A stretch of 10,125 nucleotides of DNA, from the UHGV virus genome UHGV-0288291; one strand, given 5' to 3'. The notes under the pieces are model-generated. The model was not told where the DNA came from. It was given only the letters and a program-made list of their open reading frames with translations, and made no database searches. The DNA is from a virus. The translations under genes were made by a program, and so were the position numbers. Below are positions 1 to 10,078 of the stretch, piece by piece. The first letter of the stretch is position 1. Every line of letters begins with the position of its first letter.

Positions 1-118
1 AACCGGGCGCGAAAGGTGTCGGCTCGTTGAAGGACGGCACCCACCAGTAAACATCCTCCTCCACGCCACGGCGGGTATATTTTGCCGGTGAGGTTTCCAG
101 TCTGATGATCTTACCGGT
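1..118 (-). repeat. Duplicated fragment of the portal-gene internal region (copy of 333..450)
   Basis: Read by eye, 1..118 is identical to 333..450. The minus-strand sense encodes ...TGKIIRLETSPAKYTRRGVEEDVYWWVPSFNEPTPFAPGS. The copy starts at the window edge and may extend further left. Confidence 0.7.
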
Positions 119-270
119 AACCTGTTTCTCTATGCCCCACAGGGGAAAGCCGACGGCATTAAAATTATCCCGCTCAGTGAAGTGGCGACGAAGGACGATT
201 TTTTTAATATCAAAAAAGCCAGCGCCGTTGACCTGCTGGATGCGCACCGCATCCCCTTTCAGTTGATGCT
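119..270 (+). repeat. Duplicated fragment of the portal-gene 3' region (copy of 659..810)
   Basis: 119..270 matches 659..810 with 3 mismatches (188 vs 728, 228 vs 768, 240 vs 780). It encodes NLFLYAPQGKADGIKIIPLSEVATKDDFFNIKKASA(V/A)DLLDAHRIPFQLM. Homology ends abruptly at 270/271. Confidence 0.7.
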
Positions 271-570
271 GAGATATTCCGGCAGGCCGTACAGCTCCTG
301 ATTAATATCCGGCTCCAGCAGGTGAAACACGGAACCGGGCGCGAAAGGTGTCGGCTCGTTGAAGGACGGCACCCACCAGTAAACATCCTCCTCCACGCCA
401 CGGCGGGTATATTTTGCCGGTGAGGTTTCCAGTCTGATGATCTTACCGGTGGTGCTGTAACGCTTTTCCAGAAACGCATTACCGAACACCAGAAAATCCA
501 GCACAAAGCGGCTGAAATCCTGTTGCGAAAGCCACGGATGCGGGATAAATGTCGAGGCCAGAATATTGAT
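271..570 (-). pseudogene. Q: Portal protein (gpQ-like) internal fragment, inverted relative to the 3' part of the same gene
   Basis: Clean minus-strand reading frame (part of track ORF 259..648) encoding INILASTFIPHPWLSQQDFSRFVLDFLVFGNAFLEKRYSTTGKIIRLETSPAKYTRRGVEEDVYWWVPSFNEPTPFAPGSVFHLLEPDINQELYGLPEYLS. It lies head-to-head with the plus-strand portal 3' part at about 570/571. The in-frame stop at 259-261 falls inside the adjacent duplicated segment. Confidence 0.6.
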
Positions 571-979
571 GTACGTCACCGATGCCGTGCAGGACCGCAA
601 CGATATCGAAATGCTTCGCGAAAACATGGTGAAGTCGAAAGGCCGCAATAACTTTAAAAACCTGTTTCTCTATGCCCCACAGGGGAAAGCCGACGGCATT
701 AAAATTATCCCGCTCAGTGAAGTGGCAACGAAGGACGATTTTTTTAATATCAAAAAAGCCAGCGCCGCTGACCTGCTGGACGCGCACCGCATCCCCTTTC
801 AGTTGATGGGCGGCAAGCCGGAGAACGTCGGGTCGCTGGGTGATATTGAGAAAGTGGCAAAGGTCTTTGTCCGCAATGAGCTTATCCCGCTACAGGACAG
901 GATCCGCGAGATAAACGGCTGGCTCGGTCAGGAGGTCATCCGCTTTAAAAACTACTCACTGGACACTGACAACGGCTGA
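569..979 (+). CDS. Q: Portal protein (gpQ-like) C-terminal portion, 136 codons; 5' part of the gene not colinear
   Basis: Track ORF 566..979 starts on a TTG; the first ATG is at 569. It is followed by an intrinsic terminator and then cos about 170 bp downstream, the position of Q in P2. The translation (MYVTDAVQDRNDIEMLRENMVKSKGRNNFKNLFLYAPQG...) matches my recollection of the P2 Q C-terminus; this needs alignment to confirm. Confidence 0.65.
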   Translation: MYVTDAVQDRNDIEMLRENMVKSKGRNNFKNLFLYAPQGKADGIKIIPLSEVATKDDFFNIKKASAADLLDAHRIPFQLMGGKPENVGSLGDIEKVAKVFVRNELIPLQDRIREINGWLGQEVIRFKNYSLDTDNG

Positions 980-1167: not shown

Positions 1168-1451
1168 CGCCCGCTTCGTGGGGCGGTTTTAATGCAGTTG
1201 CATAGATACTATGGATCCGCACCAGTCCTGACCGCACGCAGCCTGAACGGACATCCCCAACGCATGCAAAAACATTCACTTGTTGCATGCATAGCTTTTT
1301 AAGTACGCCATACCGCAACTGTACATTTTTAAGCAATTGGCAACCTTAAAAAATTTACATTGCTTTCAAGACCTTATCATCCGTAGTCTCTGTTTTTTAC
1401 TTTGAGCTACATCAATAAAATCTCAAACATGTTTAATGCAAAGCCCTTGTT

Positions 1452-1505
1452 ACACAACATAGAATGTATGTCTAGAAACAACGACATACTATATGTTGTG
1501 TTTTT
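1452..1505 (+). other. Long imperfect hairpin followed by a T5 run (terminator- or attenuator-like RNA structure)
   Basis: ACACAACATA (1452-1461) pairs with TATGTTGTGT (1492-1501), and an inner TATGTC (1467-1472) pairs with GACATA (1483-1488). TTTTT follows at 1501-1505. The element is AT-rich. Confidence 0.4.
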
Positions 1506-1567
1506 CCGGCTCTCTGTTCGGTGATATGCCAAATCACTTTGCGTTTAAACAGAGCATTATTTCAGGG

Positions 1568-1582
1568 CAAGACTTCGCTCAA
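1568..1582 (+). repeat. 15-bp direct repeat CAAGACTTCGCTCAA, copy 1
   Basis: Exact 15-mer also present at 1832..1846. The two copies bracket the micro-ORF and its terminator. Confidence 0.5.
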
Positions 1583-1645
1583 AAGTCATTCCACCTAAGA
1601 AGCGCATATACCGGTGGAAGTTGCCCTCTACTTACAGGAGGCAAT

Positions 1646-1759
1646 ATGAAGAAATGCTATTACTGCATTCTCGTTCTGGCCCTCTTTGGCTATCCAAACG
1701 GTAGTCCGAGTGGTTTGTCAGTAAACGTCAGTAATATCAATGTCAGCATTATGCTTTAA
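1646..1759 (+). CDS. Hypothetical 37-aa hydrophobic peptide (MKKCYYCILVLALFGYPNGSPSGLSVNVSNINVSIML) in the cos-A variable locus
   Basis: Consensus Shine-Dalgarno AGGAGG (1636-1641) 4 nt before the ATG at 1646; a strong intrinsic terminator follows immediately. N-terminal hydrophobic stretch. Convergent with gene A. The track's 88-aa version starts inside a hairpin with no SD. Confidence 0.4.
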   Translation: MKKCYYCILVLALFGYPNGSPSGLSVNVSNINVSIML

Positions 1760-1771
1760 TATGCTTCAAAC

Positions 1772-1801
1772 AAAAAAACCACCTGCCAGGGTGGTTTTTT
1801 T
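1772..1801. terminator. Bidirectional rho-independent terminator
   Basis: AAAAAAA, ACCACC, TGCCAG, GGTGGT, TTTTTTT. The A-tract upstream and T-tract downstream let it serve both the plus-strand micro-ORF and the minus-strand A operon. Confidence 0.7.
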
Positions 1802-1831
1802 GCGCCCATCATCAATACGATGAAAGACTGA

Positions 1832-1846
1832 CAAGACTTCGCTCAA
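1832..1846 (+). repeat. 15-bp direct repeat CAAGACTTCGCTCAA, copy 2
   Basis: Exact match to 1568..1582. Confidence 0.5.
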
Positions 1847-2061
1847 GACGAATTATGCGTCGACATAAGGTTACCCGCAATGATTTTATTAGACTAAATG
1901 GATGGCCTTTTATGACCCGGATCAAACGGCTGTCCTTACCGACATGCTAGTCACTCAATAGCATTTAGCCTTCTAATTCAGCATGCTATTGACCTTCTGC
2001 TGCCCCATAACTGCTCCGCATAAGCCATTCAATGCCATATCAAATCACGTTGTGTTTTTAC

Positions 2062-4338
2062 TCAAATGGGTAACGAGAACCCCGGCCACTCATCAGCAAC
2101 CGGATACGTGAATTTTTTCCCGTCATAATTTACGGTCGCGCCACGCGCCAGCGCCTCAAGCTCCCATCGTTGCGGCCTGATACCGTTCTGAGCGAGGTCA
2201 ACGCGGATACGGGTAATTTGCAATCGTTCAGACCTGGTCAGTCTGGCAGATGGTGCAATTTCATGCGGTTTTAACGGGATTCCGTTTCTTTGCTGACGAT
2301 TTGGTGTTCTCAGTCCGTGTTTTAATGCGCCCCTGAGCGCCATCACGACCTCCGGGTCACTCCATTCGATAACACCGTCATCTACCAGATTAAGCACTGC
2401 TGCGGCGTGCTCAGAAGGTGTGGGAGCCGGTAACGAAGTATCACCACCGGTGAGCTTTCCACAGTTATTGACAGGACTCCGAGGCGCGGCGATGCCGCTT
2501 TTTAAAGTCAAAGGCTCAACGACCGGAACTTTCGGCACAATGCGCCAGTCCGTCGTTCTGGTGATATGAATATGACGCGCGCCGAGATGCGGCGCGTAAA
2601 TGCCGACCACTCTCTCGACTTCTTCCTCGTACTCGTTAACGTCATCCGACAGACTACGGGCGACCCTGACAGTCTGACAATCGCGCGGGACATTTGCCCC
2701 GCCCTGCGCGCTGATATACAGCGCAAAATCACCACTGTCTGCGGCGGCGCGTGCAGCCTCGACGCGCTCGTCAAACTCATCAGCAATGCTGACGCCGCGA
2801 GGCAATTTGCGTAGTTCACGGTAAGCCCCCATTGTCGGCAGGCCAACCGTTTTAAATTGCGGAATGCGCCACGTTGACGCCCATGCGGTAACAGCCGCTG
2901 CAGTGTCTTTCAGCGGCCTGCCGGTGTCGTTATCGAGCTGACCATCCAGTGCATAGCCGTCGATGTTTTTTGAAATGTATTTCGCGATATATCCCGCAGC
3001 ACCGCCCCGGTTAAGGTGTTTTGCCTGAAAACGGTTTCGCGCGGCTCCTCTTTCGTCGCCATCCTCTTTGAGCGCATAGCGACGCATGATTTCGATAATC
3101 TGGTTACGCTGGCGTGGATGACAAAAAAGCATCATATGCCAGTGCGGCGTTCCGTCGTGGTGTGGCTCGACGACTCGCAAACCGTAGACCTGTAAATCAT
3201 TATCCTTGAATGCCGTGCGCATCAGGCTCCAGATACGGCAGAGATAACGCTGCGCATCCTTTGGATTAAATGCCTCATCGTTCCAGCCGTGATTAAGCTG
3301 AACGGTTTTACTTTCGCCTTTTCCGACCTGACGTGTCGGGTGATACTTTGACGGCGCGGTCAGCGTGATAAACATCCCCACATCACCCTCTGCGGCGGCG
3401 TAACGCTCAATACCGGCAATGGTGTTCATCAGCTCCATCCGGCGAATTTCAGGATTAGAAATACTGCCCATCACCTTACTGATAAGGTCGATGCGCTCGC
3501 CGGTTTCCCTGTTTTCAAGGTCACACGATTTAAGAAATTCCAGATTTGCCTGGCGGCGCGCACGCACATCACGAATGGCGTGTTTACTGGCATAAGGAGA
3601 ACGGTCTTTATTGACCTCCCCGACAGCTATCAGTAACGCCTCATGCCAGCGCATACGCTGGCCTTTAAGCTGACTAATCCACCACTCATCGTTAAACAGG
3701 CGGGCAATGGCAGAATATGCCTGCCTCGTGGTCATCTGTCCTTTACGGTATTTTTTCCAGTAGAGCGGGGAAATATTGAAAGCACGTGCAGCGCCAGCAA
3801 CATGACCATACAGGTGAGCCTGCGCCTCATCCGTAAACAGCGATTCTTTTTCACCATGCGCATCAACCCATGCATCGCAGAGTTCCTCATACATCATGAA
3901 AAGCTGCGATGAGATACGGGCGGCAAACTTTTTCAGCTCCTTGTCATTCATTCCCGGCAGGCGCGCATAGTGGTCACGCTCTGCCAGAAACAGCAACGAC
4001 GCGTCGGTGTTCATTTCATGGCGCTGATTCACACGCTCAATGCGCGGCCATAAACGACGCTGAAAAGTAGATGTGAGGAAATAAAACCCGTGCACCGGGC
4101 TTTTATTGCGCCGGATGTAGTCATAGCGTGAAGTAAACAGCGAGCGCAAAAAGTAAGGCAGGCGGTTAATCGTGGATAAAACACCTTGCACCTGACGCAT
4201 CTCGTCACGTGTAAGAGGTCTTTCGCGCCCGACAGCCTCGCGTGGCGCGTTCCATGCATAAGCACCGGTAAACGCCTTACCGGTGCCTGCGGTAAATGCT
4301 GACGGAGGGACAAAACGCCCGGAGGCTTTAACGGCCAT
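2062..4338 (-). CDS. A: Rolling-circle replication initiator (P2 gpA-like HUH endonuclease)
   Basis: 758-aa product. The first ATG is at 4338; the track start at 4380 is a TTG. HUH motif HWHMM is encoded at 3130-3144. The GYIAKYIS tyrosine pair (Y-x3-Y) is encoded at 2971-3000, typical of phiX174/P2-type initiators. Its start overlaps the end of the upstream small ORF. Confidence 0.9.
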   Translation of the reverse strand: MAVKASGRFVPPSAFTAGTGKAFTGAYAWNAPREAVGRERPLTRDEMRQVQGVLSTINRLPYFLRSLFTSRYDYIRRNKSPVHGFYFLTSTFQRRLWPRIERVNQRHEMNTDASLLFLAERDHYARLPGMNDKELKKFAARISSQLFMMYEELCDAWVDAHGEKESLFTDEAQAHLYGHVAGAARAFNISPLYWKKYRKGQMTTRQAYSAIARLFNDEWWISQLKGQRMRWHEALLIAVGEVNKDRSPYASKHAIRDVRARRQANLEFLKSCDLENRETGERIDLISKVMGSISNPEIRRMELMNTIAGIERYAAAEGDVGMFITLTAPSKYHPTRQVGKGESKTVQLNHGWNDEAFNPKDAQRYLCRIWSLMRTAFKDNDLQVYGLRVVEPHHDGTPHWHMMLFCHPRQRNQIIEIMRRYALKEDGDERGAARNRFQAKHLNRGGAAGYIAKYISKNIDGYALDGQLDNDTGRPLKDTAAAVTAWASTWRIPQFKTVGLPTMGAYRELRKLPRGVSIADEFDERVEAARAAADSGDFALYISAQGGANVPRDCQTVRVARSLSDDVNEYEEEVERVVGIYAPHLGARHIHITRTTDWRIVPKVPVVEPLTLKSGIAAPRSPVNNCGKLTGGDTSLPAPTPSEHAAAVLNLVDDGVIEWSDPEVVMALRGALKHGLRTPNRQQRNGIPLKPHEIAPSARLTRSERLQITRIRVDLAQNGIRPQRWELEALARGATVNYDGKKFTYPVADEWPGFSLPI
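2468..2487 (-). promoter_or_regulatory. Candidate replication origin / A-protein nick region inside gene A
   Basis: The plus strand reads TTGACAGGACTCCGAGGCGC, the reverse complement of GCGCCTCGGAGTCCTGTCAA, which I recall as part of the P2 ori nick region located within the A coding sequence. This is recollection only and needs alignment. Confidence 0.35.
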
Positions 4339-4603
4339 ATGAGCCAAAAGCCTCTGAACAACGCTTGCTGAGTTGCTCAACCTGCGCGTTTAAATCAGCA
4401 AAAGATTTTGCGCTTCCGGTCAGAATATCGTGATGCATCAGGCCGGAAACGAGCTGGCCTAATTTCGGGTAATAACCAACCACCGCCAGCCATTCCTGAC
4501 CGGCGTTTTTACCGCTTTCCGCTCTCTTTTTCTCGTGGAGAATAAACTGAAAGCTGTCACTGGTAACGACATAACGTTTGCCAATTTCAATACGAATACT
4601 CAT
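4328..4603 (-). CDS. Hypothetical protein (P2 orf83 position), 91 aa
   Basis: ATG at 4603 overlaps the upstream stop (ATGA); SD-like GGAGAA upstream. Immediately precedes A. Confidence 0.6.
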   Translation of the reverse strand: MSIRIEIGKRYVVTSDSFQFILHEKKRAESGKNAGQEWLAVVGYYPKLGQLVSGLMHHDILTGSAKSFADLNAQVEQLSKRCSEAFGSYGR

Positions 4604-4824
4604 GCCGTTCTCCGGTAATGTTTGTTTTTTGCTTCAAAGACTGACTGACAGGAAACACAACGCGTGGCTGACGGATAAGCCGCACGACGGGCAGCAGGTA
4701 TTGGCGCGTCACACTCTTCGCAAACCAGCGCAGAAACACCGCAATGTTTTACCCTTGCCGCGTTAATCTGGCGCTCCAGTAATTCAGCCTGTTGTTCCTG
4801 AATGAAATCTACGTTGTCCGGCAT
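4600..4824 (-). CDS. Small C4 zinc-finger protein, TraR/DksA-like (P2 orf82 position), 74 aa
   Basis: CEEC...(about 20 aa)...CVSC motif. Start ATG overlaps the upstream stop (TAATG). Confidence 0.6.
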   Translation of the reverse strand: MPDNVDFIQEQQAELLERQINAARVKHCGVSALVCEECDAPIPAARRAAYPSATRCVSCQSVFEAKNKHYRRTA

Positions 4825-5126
4825 TACCAGTTCCTTTTGTCGTTCAGTTTCTTAAATTCATCAGCGCAATAGCTGGCGAGTTCTGTCGTTAATTTTGTCA
4901 GTTCATCCACTGAGGAAATTTGCCTGTGAAATACAGCGCGTTTTACAAGTAAATTGATCACATCAGACAGGAGGTTTAATTCGCTCTGATAAATCGCGAT
5001 AACAGATTCAGTTATGTCGCGCTTTTCTTTATCAAGACCAAGTTGAATAAGAGACAAATCGCCATTTTCCATAACAGCGATTTTTAAGGCGTTATTCAGT
5101 AATACAACCGAACGAGAACAGGACAT
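4824..5126 (-). CDS. Hypothetical protein (P2 orf81 position), 100 aa
   Basis: The track start at 5129 is a TTG; the first ATG is at 5126 and overlaps the upstream stop (TGATG). GGAGG lies 8 nt upstream. Confidence 0.6.
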   Translation of the reverse strand: MSCSRSVVLLNNALKIAVMENGDLSLIQLGLDKEKRDITESVIAIYQSELNLLSDVINLLVKRAVFHRQISSVDELTKLTTELASYCADEFKKLNDKRNW

Positions 5127-5350
5127 CAAAGCACCTCCCCGCGAGACAATCCGATATTGTGAAATTTTTCCGACTCCTGACTGAGCAGCTCAACTATCTC
5201 CACGCGGGATAACTCCGCCTTTGTGATGTGGCGAATCATGGCGTCAAGATGAGAAGAAAAGCGCGTCGCAGCGTCGGCCTGTGCTTCGGTTCTGGCCTGT
5301 TGCAGCAGTAATGCGTATTTACCGCACTGATTTTCAGAAACTGTATGCAT
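5126..5350 (-). CDS. Hypothetical protein (P2 orf80 position), 74 aa
   Basis: ATG at 5350 with GGAGA 7 nt upstream; its stop overlaps the next start. Confidence 0.6.
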
Positions 5351-6786: not shown

Positions 6787-6855
6787 CTCTATATAAAGAT
6801 TACATTTTCACCATTTGCTACCAAGATGGTGAATACAGCGCCGGAGGGCTTTCTT

Positions 6856-7836
6856 ATGGCAATTAAGAAGCTCGATGATGGTCGCTATGAAGTGGACATT
6901 AGACCTCGCGGTCGCGACGGAAAACGCATCCGCAGGAAATTCGAAAGAAAAGCTGAAGCACTAGCATTTGAGCGATACACAATCGCCAATGCCAGTCAGA
7001 AAGAATGGGGAGGCCAGCGAGCAGACCGCCGGACTTTGAGTGAGTTGCTGGACATCTGGTGGAAATATCACGGGCAAAACCACGAGCATGGAACAAAAGA
7101 GTTTAATCATCTACTCAAAACCATCAGCGGCATAGGTGATATACCAGTGAGCAGGATGAGCAAAAGGGCTTTGATGGATTATCGTTCCATGCGACTACGT
7201 GATGGTATCAGTGCCGCAACGATAAACCGTGACATGTACCGATTATCCGGCATGTTCACAAAATTAATTCAATTGGATGAATTTTCCGGGCAACACCCAA
7301 TTCACGGACTGCCGCCACTGGCGGAGGCCAACCCTGAAATGACGTTCTTGGAAAAAGCAGAAATCGAAAAACTGTTAAATGTTTTGGCTGGTGATGACTT
7401 ACTTGTCGCGCTTTTATGTCTGAGCACCGGAGGAAGATGGACGGAAGTTGCCACGCTAAAACCAGCACAGATTACAAATTGCAGGGTTACCTTCCTGAAA
7501 ACCAAAAACGGTAAAAAGCGAACCGTGCCGATTTCTGAGGAACTGGAGAAAAAAGTTAAAGAGGAGGCCAGCGCCAAATTATTCAAAGTTGATTATGAGA
7601 AATTTTGCGGGATTTTACGCAGAGTGAAACCTGATATACCACCCAATCAGGCAACCCACATCCTGCGGCATACATTCGCAAGCCATTTCATGATGAATGG
7701 GGGCAATATAATCGCACTGCAACAGATTCTGGGACATGCGAGCATTCAGCAGACGATGGCCTATGCGCACCTTGCGCCTGACTATCTGCAAAATGCCGTC
7801 GCTCTGAATCCACTAAAAGGCGGAGTGACGTTATAA
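6856..7836 (+). CDS. int: Tyrosine integrase (P2 Int-like), 326 aa
   Basis: The first ATG with an SD (GGAGGG, 6843-6848) gives MAIKKLDDGRYEVDIRP...; the track start at 6826 is upstream of this. C-terminal catalytic region HILRHTFASHF...LGHASIQQTMAYAHL carries the R/H-x-x-R/Y signature. Confidence 0.9.
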   Translation: MAIKKLDDGRYEVDIRPRGRDGKRIRRKFERKAEALAFERYTIANASQKEWGGQRADRRTLSELLDIWWKYHGQNHEHGTKEFNHLLKTISGIGDIPVSRMSKRALMDYRSMRLRDGISAATINRDMYRLSGMFTKLIQLDEFSGQHPIHGLPPLAEANPEMTFLEKAEIEKLLNVLAGDDLLVALLCLSTGGRWTEVATLKPAQITNCRVTFLKTKNGKKRTVPISEELEKKVKEEASAKLFKVDYEKFCGILRRVKPDIPPNQATHILRHTFASHFMMNGGNIIALQQILGHASIQQTMAYAHLAPDYLQNAVALNPLKGGVTL

Positions 7837-7848
7837 ATTTCCCCCTCT

Positions 7849-7873
7849 GAGTGTCCACATAGTGTCCACACTC
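7849..7873. promoter_or_regulatory. Candidate integrase arm-type binding sites (two TGTCCACA repeats, 11-bp spacing)
   Basis: GAGTGTCCACATAGTGTCCACACTC, with TGTCCACA at 7852-7859 and 7863-7870. The reverse complement TGTGGACA is what I recall as the P2 Int arm-site consensus. Confidence 0.5.
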
Positions 7874-7955
7874 AAGAAATTTTGAAACCGCTCCAAACCC
7901 TTACAGCTTTCGATAAGTACCTGTTTTTACTTTTGATTGCATGTAAGTAATTGAT

Positions 7956-7982
7956 AAAAAAAACCCCCACATCATGTGGGGG
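7956..7982 (-). terminator. Hairpin with A8 tract: terminator for leftward transcription, possibly part of the att core
   Basis: AAAAAAAA (7956-7963), CCCCCAC (7964-7970), loop ATCAT, GTGGGGG (7976-7982). The T-tract follows the stem only on the minus strand. Confidence 0.45.
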
Positions 7983-8046
7983 AAGACAGGGATGGTGTCA
8001 CAAAAATGCACCTAACCTGATGATATAAATGGATTTATATCAAACA

Positions 8047-8069
8047 CTGTCCACATAGCGTCCACATCG
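8047..8069. promoter_or_regulatory. Candidate integrase arm-type binding sites, second pair
   Basis: TGTCCACA (8048-8055) and CGTCCACA (8059-8066), same 11-bp spacing as the first pair. Confidence 0.5.
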
Positions 8070-8076
8070 ACTACTG

Positions 8077-8110
8077 AAAGCCCCTAAGCACATGGGGCTT
8101 TATTTTTCCT
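8077..8110 (+). terminator. Rho-independent terminator upstream of the moron
   Basis: AAAGCCCC (8077-8084), loop TAAGCACAT, GGGGCTTT (8094-8101), then ATTTTTCC. Confidence 0.6.
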
Positions 8111-8161
8111 CTTTTTGGAGGTATGAATTTTACTCAACCAAATGTTTATTAAGGATTTTCT

Positions 8162-8563
8162 ATGGCAACTCTTAAATCAGTGATGGCAATAGCCACCTTA
8201 ATAATTTCACTCAACGCAAACGCGAATGATATTAAAACCCTTCAAAAGCAGCTTAAACCATGGCAACCCCTAGAAATCACGAATAAAAACAACTCGCTTA
8301 CGGTGGTGCTTCCTGGCAAAGAAATCTCTCCTGACGCCTACAACAACCTGATTATGACTGGTGTATGCGCACCAGTCTGGACAAAAGACACGCCTGTTTC
8401 ATATCTCAAAAAAATCAAAGAAATAAGCATAGTTAATCAATATAAATCCATCGGTTATGTTTTTTCCGAACCATTAAAAACATGCAATGAAATAGGTTCG
8501 TTGACGCCTAAACAGGGGCAAGTGTTACTTTCATCCCAAACACGTCTTTACACAGGGAAATAA
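8162..8563 (+). CDS. Hypothetical secreted/periplasmic protein, 133 aa; AT-rich moron between int and ogr
   Basis: SD AAGGA 7 nt before the ATG. N-terminal Sec-type signal peptide MATLKSVMAIATLIISLNANA with an AxA-like cleavage motif and no lipobox Cys. Mature part is K/N/S/T-rich with two Cys. GC is visibly lower than the flanking phage genes. Terminators on both sides. Confidence 0.7.
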   Translation: MATLKSVMAIATLIISLNANANDIKTLQKQLKPWQPLEITNKNNSLTVVLPGKEISPDAYNNLIMTGVCAPVWTKDTPVSYLKKIKEISIVNQYKSIGYVFSEPLKTCNEIGSLTPKQGQVLLSSQTRLYTGK

Positions 8564-8582
8564 GCTCCTAAACAAAGTTGAA

Positions 8583-8610
8583 AGCCCCTCGACTGAGGGG
8601 CTTCCTGTTT
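8583..8610. terminator. Bidirectional terminator between the convergent moron and ogr
   Basis: AGCCCCTC, loop GACT, GAGGGGCT, with U-rich flanks on both strands. Confidence 0.6.
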
Positions 8611-8614
8611 GTAA

Positions 8615-8833
8615 TTACATCCACATAATTTGCTGCCCTGACGGCAACGGGTGCGGCCTTACGGCGTGGACTTCTCCCGGCTTCACGATGTATCGCTGTA
8701 CCGACTCATAAGTGATGAACGTGGCACTACAATTCACGTTCTGGCACTGATGATAACGCTCTTTTGTCGTGTCAGTGATATAGCGGCTTGTACGCGCATG
8801 TGCGGCATGCTGGCATAAAGGACAATGAAACAT
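8615..8833 (-). CDS. ogr: Late gene transcription activator Ogr (zinc finger), 72 aa
   Basis: MFHCPLCQHAAHARTSRYITDTTKERYHQCQNVNCSATF... with a CxxC...CxxxxC zinc finger. ATG at 8833 has AGAGG 8 nt upstream. The longer track ORF (to 8896) starts on a TTG with no SD. Confidence 0.9.
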   Translation of the reverse strand: MFHCPLCQHAAHARTSRYITDTTKERYHQCQNVNCSATFITYESVQRYIVKPGEVHAVRPHPLPSGQQIMWM

Positions 8834-8914
8834 CGCGAGCACCTCTTCCGGTTTTGTTGATGGTGCCATTTTAGTTAAATTATCCTTATAAAACAAACAG
8901 ATAAAATAAAAACA

Positions 8915-10078
8915 TCACTCATCATCTTCTGTTTCGTACTCCACATCAGAAAGCCTGACCTCAAGCTCCAGGGACGTCGTGAAGCCGCTATTATTCAGAA
9001 AATGTGTCACCTTAGTGATTGTCCAGTCCTGCTCGTCTATGACGCGCTTAAAGCCTGACACTTTAACCGGTGTTTCCGTGTAAATATCTGCCCGACCGGT
9101 AGCCAGGCTGATGGAGAACTCCGCAACGCCCCGTTGCAGTTTATCCCACTTCGCCTGAGCGGCGCGCATGGCCTGCGCTTTCGTGGCATATACCGTGGTC
9201 AGGGCAAAAACATTGTCAGCCTCACCGGCCATATATTCACCTTCGCGCGCTTCCGGTACTTTTGGCGCTTTCTTCTGCCTGACCGGTTTCGCTTTTGGGT
9301 GCTCCAGTGCGCGCAGGTGTTTTTCTTTCTTTTTGCGTTTCAGTTTTATCTTCTGCTTTTGCGGCTTCGGGTCTTTGGTGTGAAGCCACTTTGCCGTTAC
9401 GCCGGTATAGGCTCCACGGTCAGCAATCGCAAAATGATGACGGTCGCCGTCGCTGCGGGTGATGGTAATCTGCGGGATTTTTTTACCGCTGGCCGTCACC
9501 CCCTGCCCCGCTTTGAGAAACAACAGTTTTCCCATTTTTACCGACACCTCACCGCCGTTGCGTTCAGCAAGGCGGGTCAGGAATTTTGCATCAGACTCCT
9601 GCGACTGGTCGATGTGCGGGATTTTAATTCCGGCCAGTGACGGAGCGACACTGGCTTCCAGCCTGTTACGGGAGGCTATCGCCTCAACAATCGCACCGAG
9701 CGTGGTGTCATGCCAGGAGCCTTCACGGCGGGAATTGAGCGTCCCGCGAAAATCTGCACTCCGGGCGCGGATGGTGACCACATCCGGTGCGCCCCGGTGT
9801 TCAACCTCATCAACGGTAAATTTCCCTTTGCATACCAGAGCAAAACCTTTCCAGCCTATATACACCGTCAGGACAGCGCCACGAACCGGCAGCCCGACCT
9901 GCCCGTCGGCATCGTTCAGTTCAATATCAAGCTGGTCAGCCTCAAAGCCCCGGTTATCCGTCAGGGTCATGCTCATCAGACGGTCGCTGATATTGCCGGT
10001 AATATCCCTGCTGTCGAGCATCAGCATGTAATCCGGCGTCAGCGTACTGCCTGCATCAAATGTCAGCGCATCCAGCAT
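8915..10078 (-). CDS. D: Phage tail protein D (P2 gpD-like), 387 aa
   Basis: Same strand and immediately upstream of ogr, as in P2. Length matches P2 gpD. Start ATG overlaps the upstream stop (TAATG). Confidence 0.85.
   Translation of the reverse strand: MLDALTFDAGSTLTPDYMLMLDSRDITGNISDRLMSMTLTDNRGFEADQLDIELNDADGQVGLPVRGAVLTVYIGWKGFALVCKGKFTVDEVEHRGAPDVVTIRARSADFRGTLNSRREGSWHDTTLGAIVEAIASRNRLEASVAPSLAGIKIPHIDQSQESDAKFLTRLAERNGGEVSVKMGKLLFLKAGQGVTASGKKIPQITITRSDGDRHHFAIADRGAYTGVTAKWLHTKDPKPQKQKIKLKRKKKEKHLRALEHPKAKPVRQKKAPKVPEAREGEYMAGEADNVFALTTVYATKAQAMRAAQAKWDKLQRGVAEFSISLATGRADIYTETPVKVSGFKRVIDEQDWTITKVTHFLNNSGFTTSLELEVRLSDVEYETEDDE

What the first reader, a model, noticed from the sequence alone, without database searches (positions are those of the whole stretch)
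8111..8610. AT-rich secreted-protein moron inside the attachment region between int and ogr
P2 has no gene between int and ogr; that interval is attP. Here a 133-aa ORF with a clear Sec-type signal peptide and markedly lower GC than its neighbours is inserted there, with its own SD and intrinsic terminators on both sides (8077-8110 and 8583-8610). This is the classic signature of a horizontally acquired lysogenic-conversion gene. If the att core lies between the two arm-repeat pairs, the gene would sit at the prophage edge next to host DNA after integration. A small periplasmic or secreted protein here could act in superinfection exclusion or host interaction. I do not recognise the family.
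Basis: partly seen in the sequence, partly recalled or inferred. Interest (0 to 1): 0.6.

Follow-up and report, generated by a model that had tools for sequence, protein, structure and literature searches.

The report
Periplasmic accessory gene at P2-prophage edge
A P2-like E. coli phage carries an optional 504-bp gene cassette, just inside the end of the integrated prophage, that encodes a small exported protein of unknown function; relatives of this protein sit at the same boundary in P2-like phages of many bacteria, so it is a good but untested candidate for a prophage-expressed cell-envelope protection factor.

Summary
ORF 8162-8563 (133 aa) is real. It has a Shine-Dalgarno sequence and a signal-peptide-like N-terminus (ANA|ND). 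Its GC is 39.3%, against 47-55% in its neighbours. Stable hairpin terminators flank it on both sides.

It lies 163 nt beyond the 47-bp att core (7953-7999). In E. coli lysogens it is the first prophage gene, next to fieF.

It is optional. Most related phages (P2, L-413C, WPhi) lack it, and 44 of 5426 E. coli genomes carry it. An 11-nt direct repeat brackets a 504-bp cassette.

It is not a one-off foreign insertion. The protein belongs to PHROG 3807 (function unknown; 371 clusters at 50% identity). In 113 of 118 loci the gene converges on tail gene D of a P2-like phage, on the lysogeny strand. In 186-like phages it sits inside a tight cI-ORF-int operon.

Alleles are under purifying selection (dN/dS 0.08-0.2), yet whole alleles have been swapped between near-identical flanks.

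The predicted fold is confident (pLDDT 86) and has no solved relative.

Function is untested. My best guess (about 0.4) is a lysogen-expressed periplasmic binding protein that blocks incoming phage. It is a new member of a known kind (a moron), of moderate interest.

The parts
7852..7870 (.). P-arm integrase-binding repeat pair (TGTCCACATAGTGTCCACA)
   Evidence: Direct repeat family D1, 95% identical to the copy at 8048. Invariant in P37, FSL SP-004 and L-413C. The assignment as an Int arm site rests on my knowledge of P2 attP, not on a test here.
7953..7999 (.). 47-bp att core, containing the hairpin 7964-7982 (a minus-strand terminator with a T-run, i.e. the host cpxP terminator)
   Evidence: Identical in attP (window), attL (strain 181.1) and attR (strain M217); identity stops at both ends. 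Hairpin dG -14.4 kcal/mol. attR abuts cpxP.
8048..8066 (.). P'-arm integrase-binding repeat pair
   Evidence: D1. Retained next to the ORF in the attL of lysogens.
8075..8085 (+). Left copy of the 11-nt direct repeat TGAAAGCCCCT that bounds the 504-bp cassette
   Evidence: (D10), exact, spacing 504. L-413C has a single hairpin at this point.
8077..8106 (+). Upstream intrinsic terminator T1 (8-bp stem, 9-nt loop, then ATTTTT). It insulates the cassette from int or host read-through.
   Evidence: dG -13.5, z -2.75. The GCCCC/GGGGC stem is kept, with a different loop, in FSL SP-004.
8122..8127 (+). Candidate -10 hexamer (TATGAA here; TATAAC in P37; TATAAA in FSL SP-004). The -35 is weak.
   Evidence: Read from alignment A5. 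It did NOT reach the threshold of the promoter scan, which found 0 sites in 7700-9000. Inference only.
8152..8156 (+). Shine-Dalgarno sequence AAGGA, 5 nt before the ATG
   Evidence: Read. The leader AACCAAATGTTTATTAAGGAT is conserved even in the divergent FSL SP-004 allele.
8162..8224 (+). Signal peptide (residues 1-21, predicted cleavage ANA|ND)
   Evidence: pLDDT below 50.
8225..8563 (+). Mature 112-aa domain plus stop codon. pI 9.4, two conserved Cys (C69, C108), alpha/beta fold, member of PHROG 3807.
8579..8589 (+). Right copy of the 11-nt direct repeat
   Evidence: D10.
8580..8605 (.). Bidirectional terminator T2, shared by the ORF (+) and ogr (-). Its stem is identical to the single hairpin of L-413C.
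   Evidence: dG -16.9 on +, -21.0 on -.
8615..8833 (-). ogr (late-gene activator, 72 aa as annotated in RefSeq lysogens), convergent with the ORF
   Evidence: Pfam Ogr_Delta, E 2e-21. Annotated as ogrK at the equivalent position in strain 181.1.

Best explanation
What it is (high confidence, about 0.9): a 504-bp optional cassette of a P2-like coliphage. It lies between the P' arm of attP and the ogr terminator, and it encodes a Sec-exported, soluble periplasmic protein of 112 residues after cleavage. The protein belongs to a family specific to P2-like phages (PHROG 3807). That family always rides on the lysogeny strand, at the junction with tail gene D.

How it most likely works (inferred, about 0.4): the prophage expresses it during lysogeny. 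In this phage, integration separates it from C-int and makes it the first gene inside attL, so it would need a weak promoter of its own downstream of T1. The protein is exported and probably forms a C69-C108 disulfide. It then acts as a non-enzymatic binding protein in the periplasm that interferes with incoming phage as the tail tip or DNA crosses the envelope. That would be superinfection exclusion, possibly including exclusion of the phage's own progeny and relatives.

What is shown and what is inferred: the anatomy, the optional status, the synteny, the selection pattern and the export signal are shown. Expression in lysogens is inferred from operon position in related phages. The exclusion function is inferred by analogy only.
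For: Anatomy and optional status:
- The cassette is absent from most related phages.
- 44 of 5426 E. coli genomes carry it, while 789 carry the same int-att type.
- An 11-nt direct repeat and a duplicated hairpin mark its ends.

Export:
- Signal-peptide features are present in 105 of 110 members, and only one has a lipobox-like motif.
- C69 is invariant and C108 nearly so across alignments reaching down to about 20% identity.
- 104 of 110 mature proteins have 2 or 4 Cys.

A real, selected gene:
- dN/dS is 0.08-0.2 between alleles.
- The family has 371 clusters at 50% identity.
- The fold prediction is confident: pLDDT 86.4, pTM 0.76.

Expression in lysogens (inferred):
- In 186-like phages the order is cI, ORF, int, with gaps of 14 and 11 nt.
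- In Pseudomonas, Paraburkholderia and metagenomic P2-like phages the order is repressor, single-pass membrane protein (PHROG 6521, moron category), ORF, all on one strand.

A phage-centred rather than host-centred role:
- gpD is downstream on the opposite strand in 113 of 118 loci, across hosts from E. coli to Burkholderia.

Diversification consistent with an arms race:
- The ORF is 75% (P37) and 66% (FSL SP-004) identical, inside flanks that are 96.5-100% identical to P37 and 81-97% to FSL SP-004.
- dS is 1-2.4 between alleles.

A binder rather than an enzyme:
- The conserved positions are mostly hydrophobic, Gly, Cys and Trp. Only Q28, K29 and N92 are polar.
- In longer relatives the domain is fused to envelope-type domains: VasI, YARHG, SH3_3.
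Against: - There is no experimental or homology link to any known exclusion protein. PADLOC, Pfam and NCBIfam give nothing.
- No sigma-70-like promoter was detected upstream, so expression from this prophage is unproven.
- Allele swapping could reflect ordinary phage mosaicism rather than an arms race.
- Most successful P2-like phages do without the gene.
- The papers read on P2 accessory and defence hotspots (PMC9122126; 10.64898/2026.02.27.708500) do not list an att-ogr site. This could mean the cargo there is not recognisable defence, or only that it has not been examined.
Confidence: 0.4

Rival explanations
1. Classical lysogenic-conversion factor that benefits the host: a periplasmic protein that changes envelope physiology, such as stress tolerance, serum or antimicrobial-peptide resistance, or colonisation, and has no effect on phages.
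For: The position next to att, the lower GC and the optional distribution are typical of conversion genes. The protein is exported. The prophage integrates beside the envelope-stress gene cpxP, although that is probably a coincidence of att choice.
Against: The family follows P2-like phages across hosts with very different lifestyles: E. coli, Klebsiella, Dickeya, Pectobacterium, Photorhabdus, Pseudomonas and Burkholderia. A host-niche factor would not be expected to stay at one phage position in 113 of 118 loci. It shows no similarity to known virulence families.
Confidence: 0.2
2. Periplasmic immunity or inhibitor protein against non-phage attack. It would neutralise a peptidoglycan- or membrane-targeting toxin, such as a T6SS effector, a bacteriocin or tailocin component, or a lysozyme.
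For: Small, disulfide-bonded periplasmic proteins are the usual format for such inhibitors (established knowledge). One relative is fused to a T6SS-associated VasI domain. In the decayed Enterobacter locus L021 the gene lies next to a gene with a colicin pore-forming domain. Alleles are diverse.
Against: No effector or toxin gene accompanies it in the other 117 loci. The VasI fusion and the colicin neighbour are single cases. There is no Pfam match to the Ivy, MliC/PliC or Spackle families: one of 55 members reached E 0.26 for T4_Spackle, which is noise. The predicted alpha/beta sandwich did not match any solved inhibitor structure above background.
Confidence: 0.15
3. A non-essential helper in the phage's own lytic cycle, for example fine-tuning lysis or envelope passage at release, rather than a lysogen-expressed function.
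For: It is tightly linked to P2-like genomes and lies beside the late tail operon and the late activator ogr.
Against: It is on the strand opposite the late genes and the same strand as repressor and int in every arrangement. In 186-like phages it is inside the cI-int operon. Most P2-like phages lack it. It is far from the lysis cassette.
Confidence: 0.1
4. On origin: a recent import from outside the phage gene pool (bacterial chromosome or another mobile element) into attP.
For: GC is 9.5 points below the window mean. The cassette has direct-repeat ends. It is rare among E. coli P2-like prophages.
Against: All 118 loci are P2-like phages or a remnant of one, and no bacterial-core context was found. 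Other backbone genes of the same phage (B, cox) have equally low GC3. The same site holds two alleles about 25% apart in DNA, which points to exchange among P2-like phages.
Confidence: 0.1
5. A chance ORF in a non-coding spacer, not a gene.
For: None beyond its small size and the lack of annotation.
Against: dN/dS is 0.08-0.2. It matches PHROG 3807 over its full length at E 2.7e-56. The family has 371 clusters. The fold prediction is confident.
Confidence: 0.01

Closest known systems
Morons of temperate phages (Hendrix/Juhala concept: an extra gene with its own promoter and terminator, differing in composition, present in some but not all closely related genomes)
   Same: Present or absent at one site between near-identical flanks. 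Lower GC. Terminators on both sides. Position next to att, as for many conversion genes.
   Different: A promoter is not demonstrated. The gene is not a lone import: it is a family kept at one syntenic position across P2-like phages, and in some lineages it is part of the repressor operon rather than an autonomous unit.
PHROG 3807 (phage protein family, function unknown); members include Burkholderia phage KS14 gp9, Salmonella phage FSL SP-004 gp27 and Serratia phage KSP20 orf1
   Same: Full-length HMM match, E 2.7e-56. tblastn identity is 26-69% to these proteins. The KSP20 protein has the same predicted fold, TM 0.79.
   Different: Nothing in kind: this ORF is a member. The family has no described function in the papers checked (PMC3091744, PMC3728262).
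T4 Spackle (Sp) and Imm: periplasmic and membrane superinfection-exclusion proteins that act on the incoming tail lysozyme and on DNA entry
   Same: It would work like these if the main hypothesis is right. It is a small Sec-exported periplasmic protein. In Pseudomonas and Burkholderia phages it is paired with a single-pass membrane protein.
   Different: There is no sequence relationship (Pfam T4_Spackle: 1 of 55 members at E 0.26). It is carried on a temperate phage's lysogeny strand, whereas T4's genes belong to a lytic phage's early set. Exclusion has not been tested.
P2 old, tin and fun(Z): the known non-essential exclusion genes of P2, and the gpA-portal and tail-region hotspots (Rousset et al. 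2022, PMC9122126; 10.64898/2026.02.27.708500)
   Same: It is optional cargo of P2-like prophages at a recurrent site.
   Different: The site differs: att-ogr / lysogeny-D boundary. The 2026 preprint lists gpA-portal, int-att, int-primase and late-gene hotspots, but not this one. The product is periplasmic, not a cytoplasmic nuclease or abortive-infection protein. It has no PADLOC match.
Prophage outer-membrane lipoproteins that block receptors (T5 Llp, phi80/N15 Cor) or aid the host (lambda Bor)
   Same: They are prophage- or phage-encoded envelope proteins with a signal sequence.
   Different: This protein has no lipobox, and only 1 of 110 family members has a lipobox-like motif. It is predicted to be soluble in the periplasm.

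Membership tests
Moron (Hendrix/Juhala definition) | Present in some and absent in other closely related phage genomes at the same site | tested here: met
   3 distinct phages (5 of 94 matching records) carry it; the others match in two pieces at 59-60% coverage. L-413C lacks it. 44 E. coli genomes carry it, against 789 with the same int-att type.
Moron (Hendrix/Juhala definition) | Nucleotide composition differs from the surrounding genome | tested here: met
   GC is 0.393, against a window mean of 0.488; that is the 4.7th percentile of 402-nt windows. The difference is modest, and B, cox and orf101 have similar GC3.
Moron (Hendrix/Juhala definition) | Own terminator | tested here: met
   T2 at 8582-8603, dG -16.9 on the + strand. 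T1 upstream insulates the cassette.
Moron (Hendrix/Juhala definition) | Own promoter; expressed from the repressed prophage | tested here: inconclusive
   The scan found no sigma-70-like site in 7700-9000. A -10-like hexamer is conserved at 8122-8127. Expression cannot be tested with these tools.
PHROG 3807 | Significant full-length match to the family HMM | tested here: met
   E 2.7e-56, residues 1-133 on profile positions 1-135 of 135.
Sec/SPase I exported soluble protein | Positively charged n-region, hydrophobic h-region of about 10-15 residues, small residues at -3 and -1, no lipobox | tested here: met
   K5; hydrophobic core at 6-17 (mean Kyte-Doolittle 2.55); A19-N20-A21|N22; no Cys before the cleavage site. 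The test was rule-based only. SignalP was not available.
Bacterial lipoproteins (Bor, Cor, Llp type) | Lipobox [LVI][ASTVI][GAS]C at the end of the signal peptide | tested here: not met
   Absent here. 1 of 110 family members has a lipobox-like match.
T4 Spackle family (Pfam PF25676) | HMM match above the gathering threshold | tested here: not met
   No hit for the window protein. 1 of 55 members reached E 0.26.
Known anti-phage defence systems (PADLOC-DB v2) | Match to any defence-protein model | tested here: not met
   0 families at E up to 1.
DUF4431 (label that UniRef gives to one homologue, P0029) | Pfam HMM match | tested here: not met
   None of 55 members matched at E up to 1.
Periplasmic lysozyme inhibitors (Ivy, MliC/PliC, PliG) | Pfam match, or the family's fold found in a structure search | tested here: not met
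Superinfection-exclusion proteins (a functional class) | Reduces infection by incoming phage when expressed | not testable with these tools
   This needs plating and DNA-entry assays.

The most novel reading that the evidence does not exclude
PHROG 3807 is an unrecognised exclusion factor with a new fold, found across P2-like phages. It would be made from the lysogeny transcription unit, exported to the periplasm, and there bind a component of incoming contractile-tail phages (tail tip, tape measure or ejection proteins). That would protect lysogens, and the phage's own released progeny, from unproductive reinfection. Allele swapping would then track the specificity of the target. In Pseudomonas and Burkholderia phages it would work together with the PHROG 6521 membrane protein.
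Probability: 0.3. Interest if true: 0.65.

Novelty: new member of a known kind. Interest (0 to 1): 0.45.

Why it matters
P2-like prophages are among the commonest in Enterobacterales. Their cargo is being mined for defence systems at the gpA-portal hotspot and at a few others.

This gene marks a further cargo position, the boundary between the lysogeny unit and tail gene D. In P2-type coliphages that boundary becomes the attL edge of the prophage. The position holds one recurrent family of exported proteins with a confidently predicted fold that has no solved relative and no known function.

Because the cassette is small, optional and has natural allelic variants inside identical flanks, its phenotype is easy to test. 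A positive result would add an envelope-level factor to the known repertoire of P2 accessory functions, which are otherwise cytoplasmic. A negative result for phage exclusion would point to a host-benefit role carried by phages across many genera.

Tried and rejected
Searches with no result:
- Pfam, NCBIfam and PADLOC scans of the ORF gave no meaningful hit.
- A Pfam scan of 55 family members gave only noise. The UniRef label 'DUF4431' and a weak T4_Spackle hit were both rejected.
- A profile search of PDB sequences found nothing below E 0.2.
- AFDB50 was not available.
- The promoter scan found no site.

Leads judged too thin:
- Domain fusions in long relatives (VasI, YARHG, SH3_3, pentapeptide) say only that the domain works outside the cytoplasm.
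- I considered an Ogr-dependent late promoter using the TGT-N13-ACA within the P' arm repeat. I dropped it: the spacing differs from the N12 I recall for P2 late promoters, and the gene is on the lysogeny strand.

Technical limits:
- The search for related loci failed on the diverse alignment. It returned only 3 genome loci with the tighter one, so the synteny count rests mainly on viral contigs.

Apparent exception resolved:
- L021 seemed to be a non-phage context. It lies in the baeSR-yegQ...yegS neighbourhood, where K-12 has its P2 remnant (my own knowledge), so I read it as a decayed prophage edge.

Literature:
- Searches found no description of this gene.

Full report
**The window.**
The window is part of a P2-like phage (Peduovirus). 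In order it holds:
- the portal C-terminus,
- a low-GC gap,
- A (2062-4380, -),
- small ORFs,
- B, cox (Pfam Phage_Cox) and C (HTH),
- int (6826-7836, +),
- an attP region,
- the ORF in question (8162-8563, +),
- ogr (Pfam Ogr_Delta, E 2e-21, -) and D (8915-10078, -).

**Checking the observation.**
- The ORF is 133 aa, with AAGGA 5 nt before the ATG.
- The N-terminus reads MATLK-SVMAIATLIISL-NANA|ND. It has one lysine, a 12-residue hydrophobic core and an A-x-A cleavage site after residue 21. It has no lipobox.
- The same rule-based test is positive in 105 of 110 family members and in none of nine cytoplasmic proteins of the window.
- AlphaFold leaves residues 1-18 disordered. No formal signal-peptide predictor was available.
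- GC is 0.393 (GC3 0.388). Compare int 0.472, ogr 0.479, D 0.548 and the window mean 0.488. Only 4.7% of 402-nt windows are as low, but B, cox and orf101 have similar GC3.
- The terminator scan found 5 sites in 7700-9000, against 1.2 expected.
- T1 (8077-8101 plus a U-run) folds at -13.5 kcal/mol. T2 (8582-8603) folds at -16.9 on the + strand and -21.0 on the - strand.

**Where it sits relative to att.**
- Complete E. coli genomes match the window only from position 7953 rightwards.
- The int side matches through 7990 and beyond.
- A three-way alignment of attP, attL and attR gives a 47-bp common core at 7953-7999. It includes the hairpin 7964-7982.
- The prophage lies between cpxP, at attR, and fieF, at attL.
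- The arm repeats are at 7852-7870 and 8048-8066.
- So the ORF is outside attP proper, 96 nt beyond the P' arm. In lysogens it is the first prophage gene, and it reads inward from the fieF side.

**It is optional, and it is a cassette.**
- Of 94 phage records that match the interval, only GMS190 (96%), P37 (88%) and FSL SP-004 (79.5%) span it. P2, L-413C, WPhi, fiAA91-ss and the others match in two pieces.
- L-413C goes from the P' arm to a single hairpin, AAGCCCCTCGACTGAGGGGCT, and then to ogr. That hairpin stem is identical to the window's T2.
- The window has in addition T1, the leader and the ORF. These are bracketed by an exact 11-nt direct repeat, TGAAAGCCCCT, at 8075 and 8579, which are 504 bp apart.
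- 44 of 5426 E. coli genomes carry the ORF: 27 at 95% identity or more, and 17 with an allele about 78% identical. 789 genomes carry this int-att type.
- The 78% allele, which matches the P37 type, sits at the identical site with the same OgrK protein.

**It is a real gene with swapped alleles.**
- dN/dS between alleles is 0.08-0.20, and dS is 1-2.4.
- Against P37, the int/attP flank is 96.5% identical and the ogr flank 100%, but the ORF only 74.9%. Against FSL SP-004, the attP flank is 96.9% and the ORF 65.9%.
- So whole alleles have been exchanged between conserved flanks.

**The family.**
- There is no Pfam, NCBIfam or PADLOC hit.
- The ORF matches PHROG 3807 (function unknown) over its full length, E 2.7e-56.
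- Word-indexed searches found 15 and then 64 clusters, in Enterobacterales and Burkholderiales.
- An exhaustive profile search found 371 clusters at 50% identity, most of them 120-140 aa.
- Signal peptides, C69, C108, N92, G98 and an N-terminal L-x-x-W motif are conserved down to about 20% identity.
- A few long relatives fuse the domain to VasI, YARHG or SH3_3. From my own knowledge, these are domains usually found outside the cytoplasm.
- The UniRef label 'DUF4431' is not supported.

**Structure.**
- With a 55-sequence alignment, AlphaFold2 gives pLDDT 86.4 and pTM 0.76, with the mature domain above 90. The fold is a compact alpha/beta domain.
- Foldseek against the PDB finds nothing significant (best E 0.098, TM below 0.4).
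- BFVD returns only family members such as KSP20 orf1, at TM 0.79. AFDB50 was unavailable.
- The conserved residues are mostly structural, which fits a binding protein better than an enzyme. This is an inference.

**Synteny, the most informative result.**
I collected 118 loci holding a family member and located gpD, Ogr and Int homologues by tblastn. gpD lies downstream on the opposite strand in 113 of the 118. Of the five exceptions, four are loci that end within about 1.3 kb of the gene (L086, L089, L097; in L006 the gpD gene is recorded in the phage's own annotation). The fifth is L021 (see below). Four arrangements recur:
- (A) C, int, attP, ORF, then ogr and D convergent. This is the window, P37, FSL SP-004 and many Enterobacterales prophages.
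- (B) In 186-like phages: cI (Pfam Phage_CI_repr), ORF, int, with gaps of 14 and 11 nt. This is a tight lysogenic operon.
- (C) In Klebsiella Vimunumvirus, the ORF lies between ogr and D.
- (D) In Pseudomonas, Paraburkholderia and metagenomic phages: HTH repressor, then a 224-241-aa single-pass membrane protein (PHROG 6521, moron category, with a C-terminal DUF1496-like Cys domain), then the ORF, which ends 3-50 nt from D.

The gene is always on the repressor/int strand, at the far end of the lysogeny unit. In many IMG/VR prophage contigs of about 30 kb it lies within the first few hundred bases.

L021 (Enterobacter) lies in the baeSR-yegQ...yegS neighbourhood. From my own knowledge, that is where K-12 keeps its P2 remnant, ogrK-yegZ. 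There the gene is followed by a gene with a colicin pore-forming domain.

**Interpretation.**
- The refinement is that this is not a stray import. It is a member of an old accessory family specific to P2-like phages, tied to the lysogeny transcription unit. In P2-type coliphages, attP lies between int and this gene. Integration therefore detaches it from C-int and leaves it as a self-contained, terminator-insulated cassette at attL.
- It would then need a promoter of its own. None reaches the scan threshold. A conserved -10-like hexamer (TATGAA, TATAAC or TATAAA) lies at 8122-8127.

**Mechanism.**
- Shown: export signals, conserved cysteines, purifying selection, allele exchange and lysogeny-strand synteny.
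- Inferred: expression in lysogens, from arrangements B and D. Also inferred: a periplasmic binding role.
- Best guess (about 0.4): superinfection exclusion at the envelope, acting in the manner of T4 Sp and Imm but unrelated to them.
- The main arguments are that the family follows the phage rather than any host niche, and that its alleles diversify.
- Rivals are a host-benefit conversion factor (0.2), immunity to a non-phage toxin (0.15) and a lytic-cycle helper (0.1). A chance ORF is excluded.

**Literature.**
- The KS14 and FSL SP-004 genome papers do not discuss the gene.
- The study of P2 regulatory and integrase regions does not mention it.
- Rousset et al. 2022 treat the gpA-portal hotspot.
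- The 2026 preprint lists gpA-portal, int-att, int-primase and late-gene hotspots, but not att-ogr.
- I found no functional study of the family in this library. That is not proof that none exists.

**Verdict.**
The finding is a real and correctly described feature. It is a new member of a known kind (a moron, or accessory lysogeny gene) from a catalogued but uncharacterised family. Interest is moderate (0.45). The family-wide synteny, the lack of any solved structural relative and the ease of testing make it a reasonable experimental target.

Noticed in passing
window 1-808: The left end of the window holds rearranged copies of portal-gene fragments. 1-118 is identical to 333-450, and 119-268 is 98% identical to 659-808. 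Portal-like ORFs occur on both strands (259-648 on -, 566-979 on +). Either the portal gene of this element is rearranged, meaning a defective prophage, or the assembly is chimeric here.
   Followed up: partly
window 1200-2061: This is a low-GC stretch (0.41) between the portal/cos end and gene A, which is the classical old/tin defence hotspot of P2-like phages. Here it is nearly empty and holds only an 88-aa ORF (1493-1759).
   Followed up: no
window 7953-7999: The 47-bp att core contains a minus-strand terminator hairpin with a T-run. In lysogens this is the terminator region of cpxP. The prophage sits between the envelope-stress gene cpxP and fieF.
   Followed up: yes
window 8615-8950 (ogr and the D 3' end): DNA similar to ogr and its surroundings is present in 4940 of 5426 complete E. 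coli genomes, nearly always without the rest of the interval. This fits the widespread ogrK P2 remnant.
   Followed up: partly
L016 5304-5978; L012 5194-5919: In P2-like phages of Pseudomonas and Paraburkholderia, a 224-241-aa single-pass membrane protein lies between the repressor and the family member. It belongs to PHROG 6521 and has a C-terminal DUF1496-like Cys-containing domain. It could be a functional partner.
   Followed up: partly
L021 5941-8097: In an Enterobacter chromosome the family member occurs without gpD, ogr or int, in the baeSR-yegQ...yegS region. It is followed by a 337-aa protein with a colicin pore-forming domain (E 1e-37) and a convergent 91-aa ORF, which is the usual position for a pore-former immunity gene.
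   Followed up: partly
window 4824-5129: orf101, between A and B, has the lowest GC of the annotated genes (0.386, GC3 0.402), as low as the ORF under study. It may be another accessory gene.
   Followed up: no
L008 6001-7433: In Dickeya the family member is again the first gene after the host gene pflB. Two further small genes, one DUF4177-like and one YidD-like, lie between it and ogr, so this edge position can hold more than one cargo gene.
   Followed up: no
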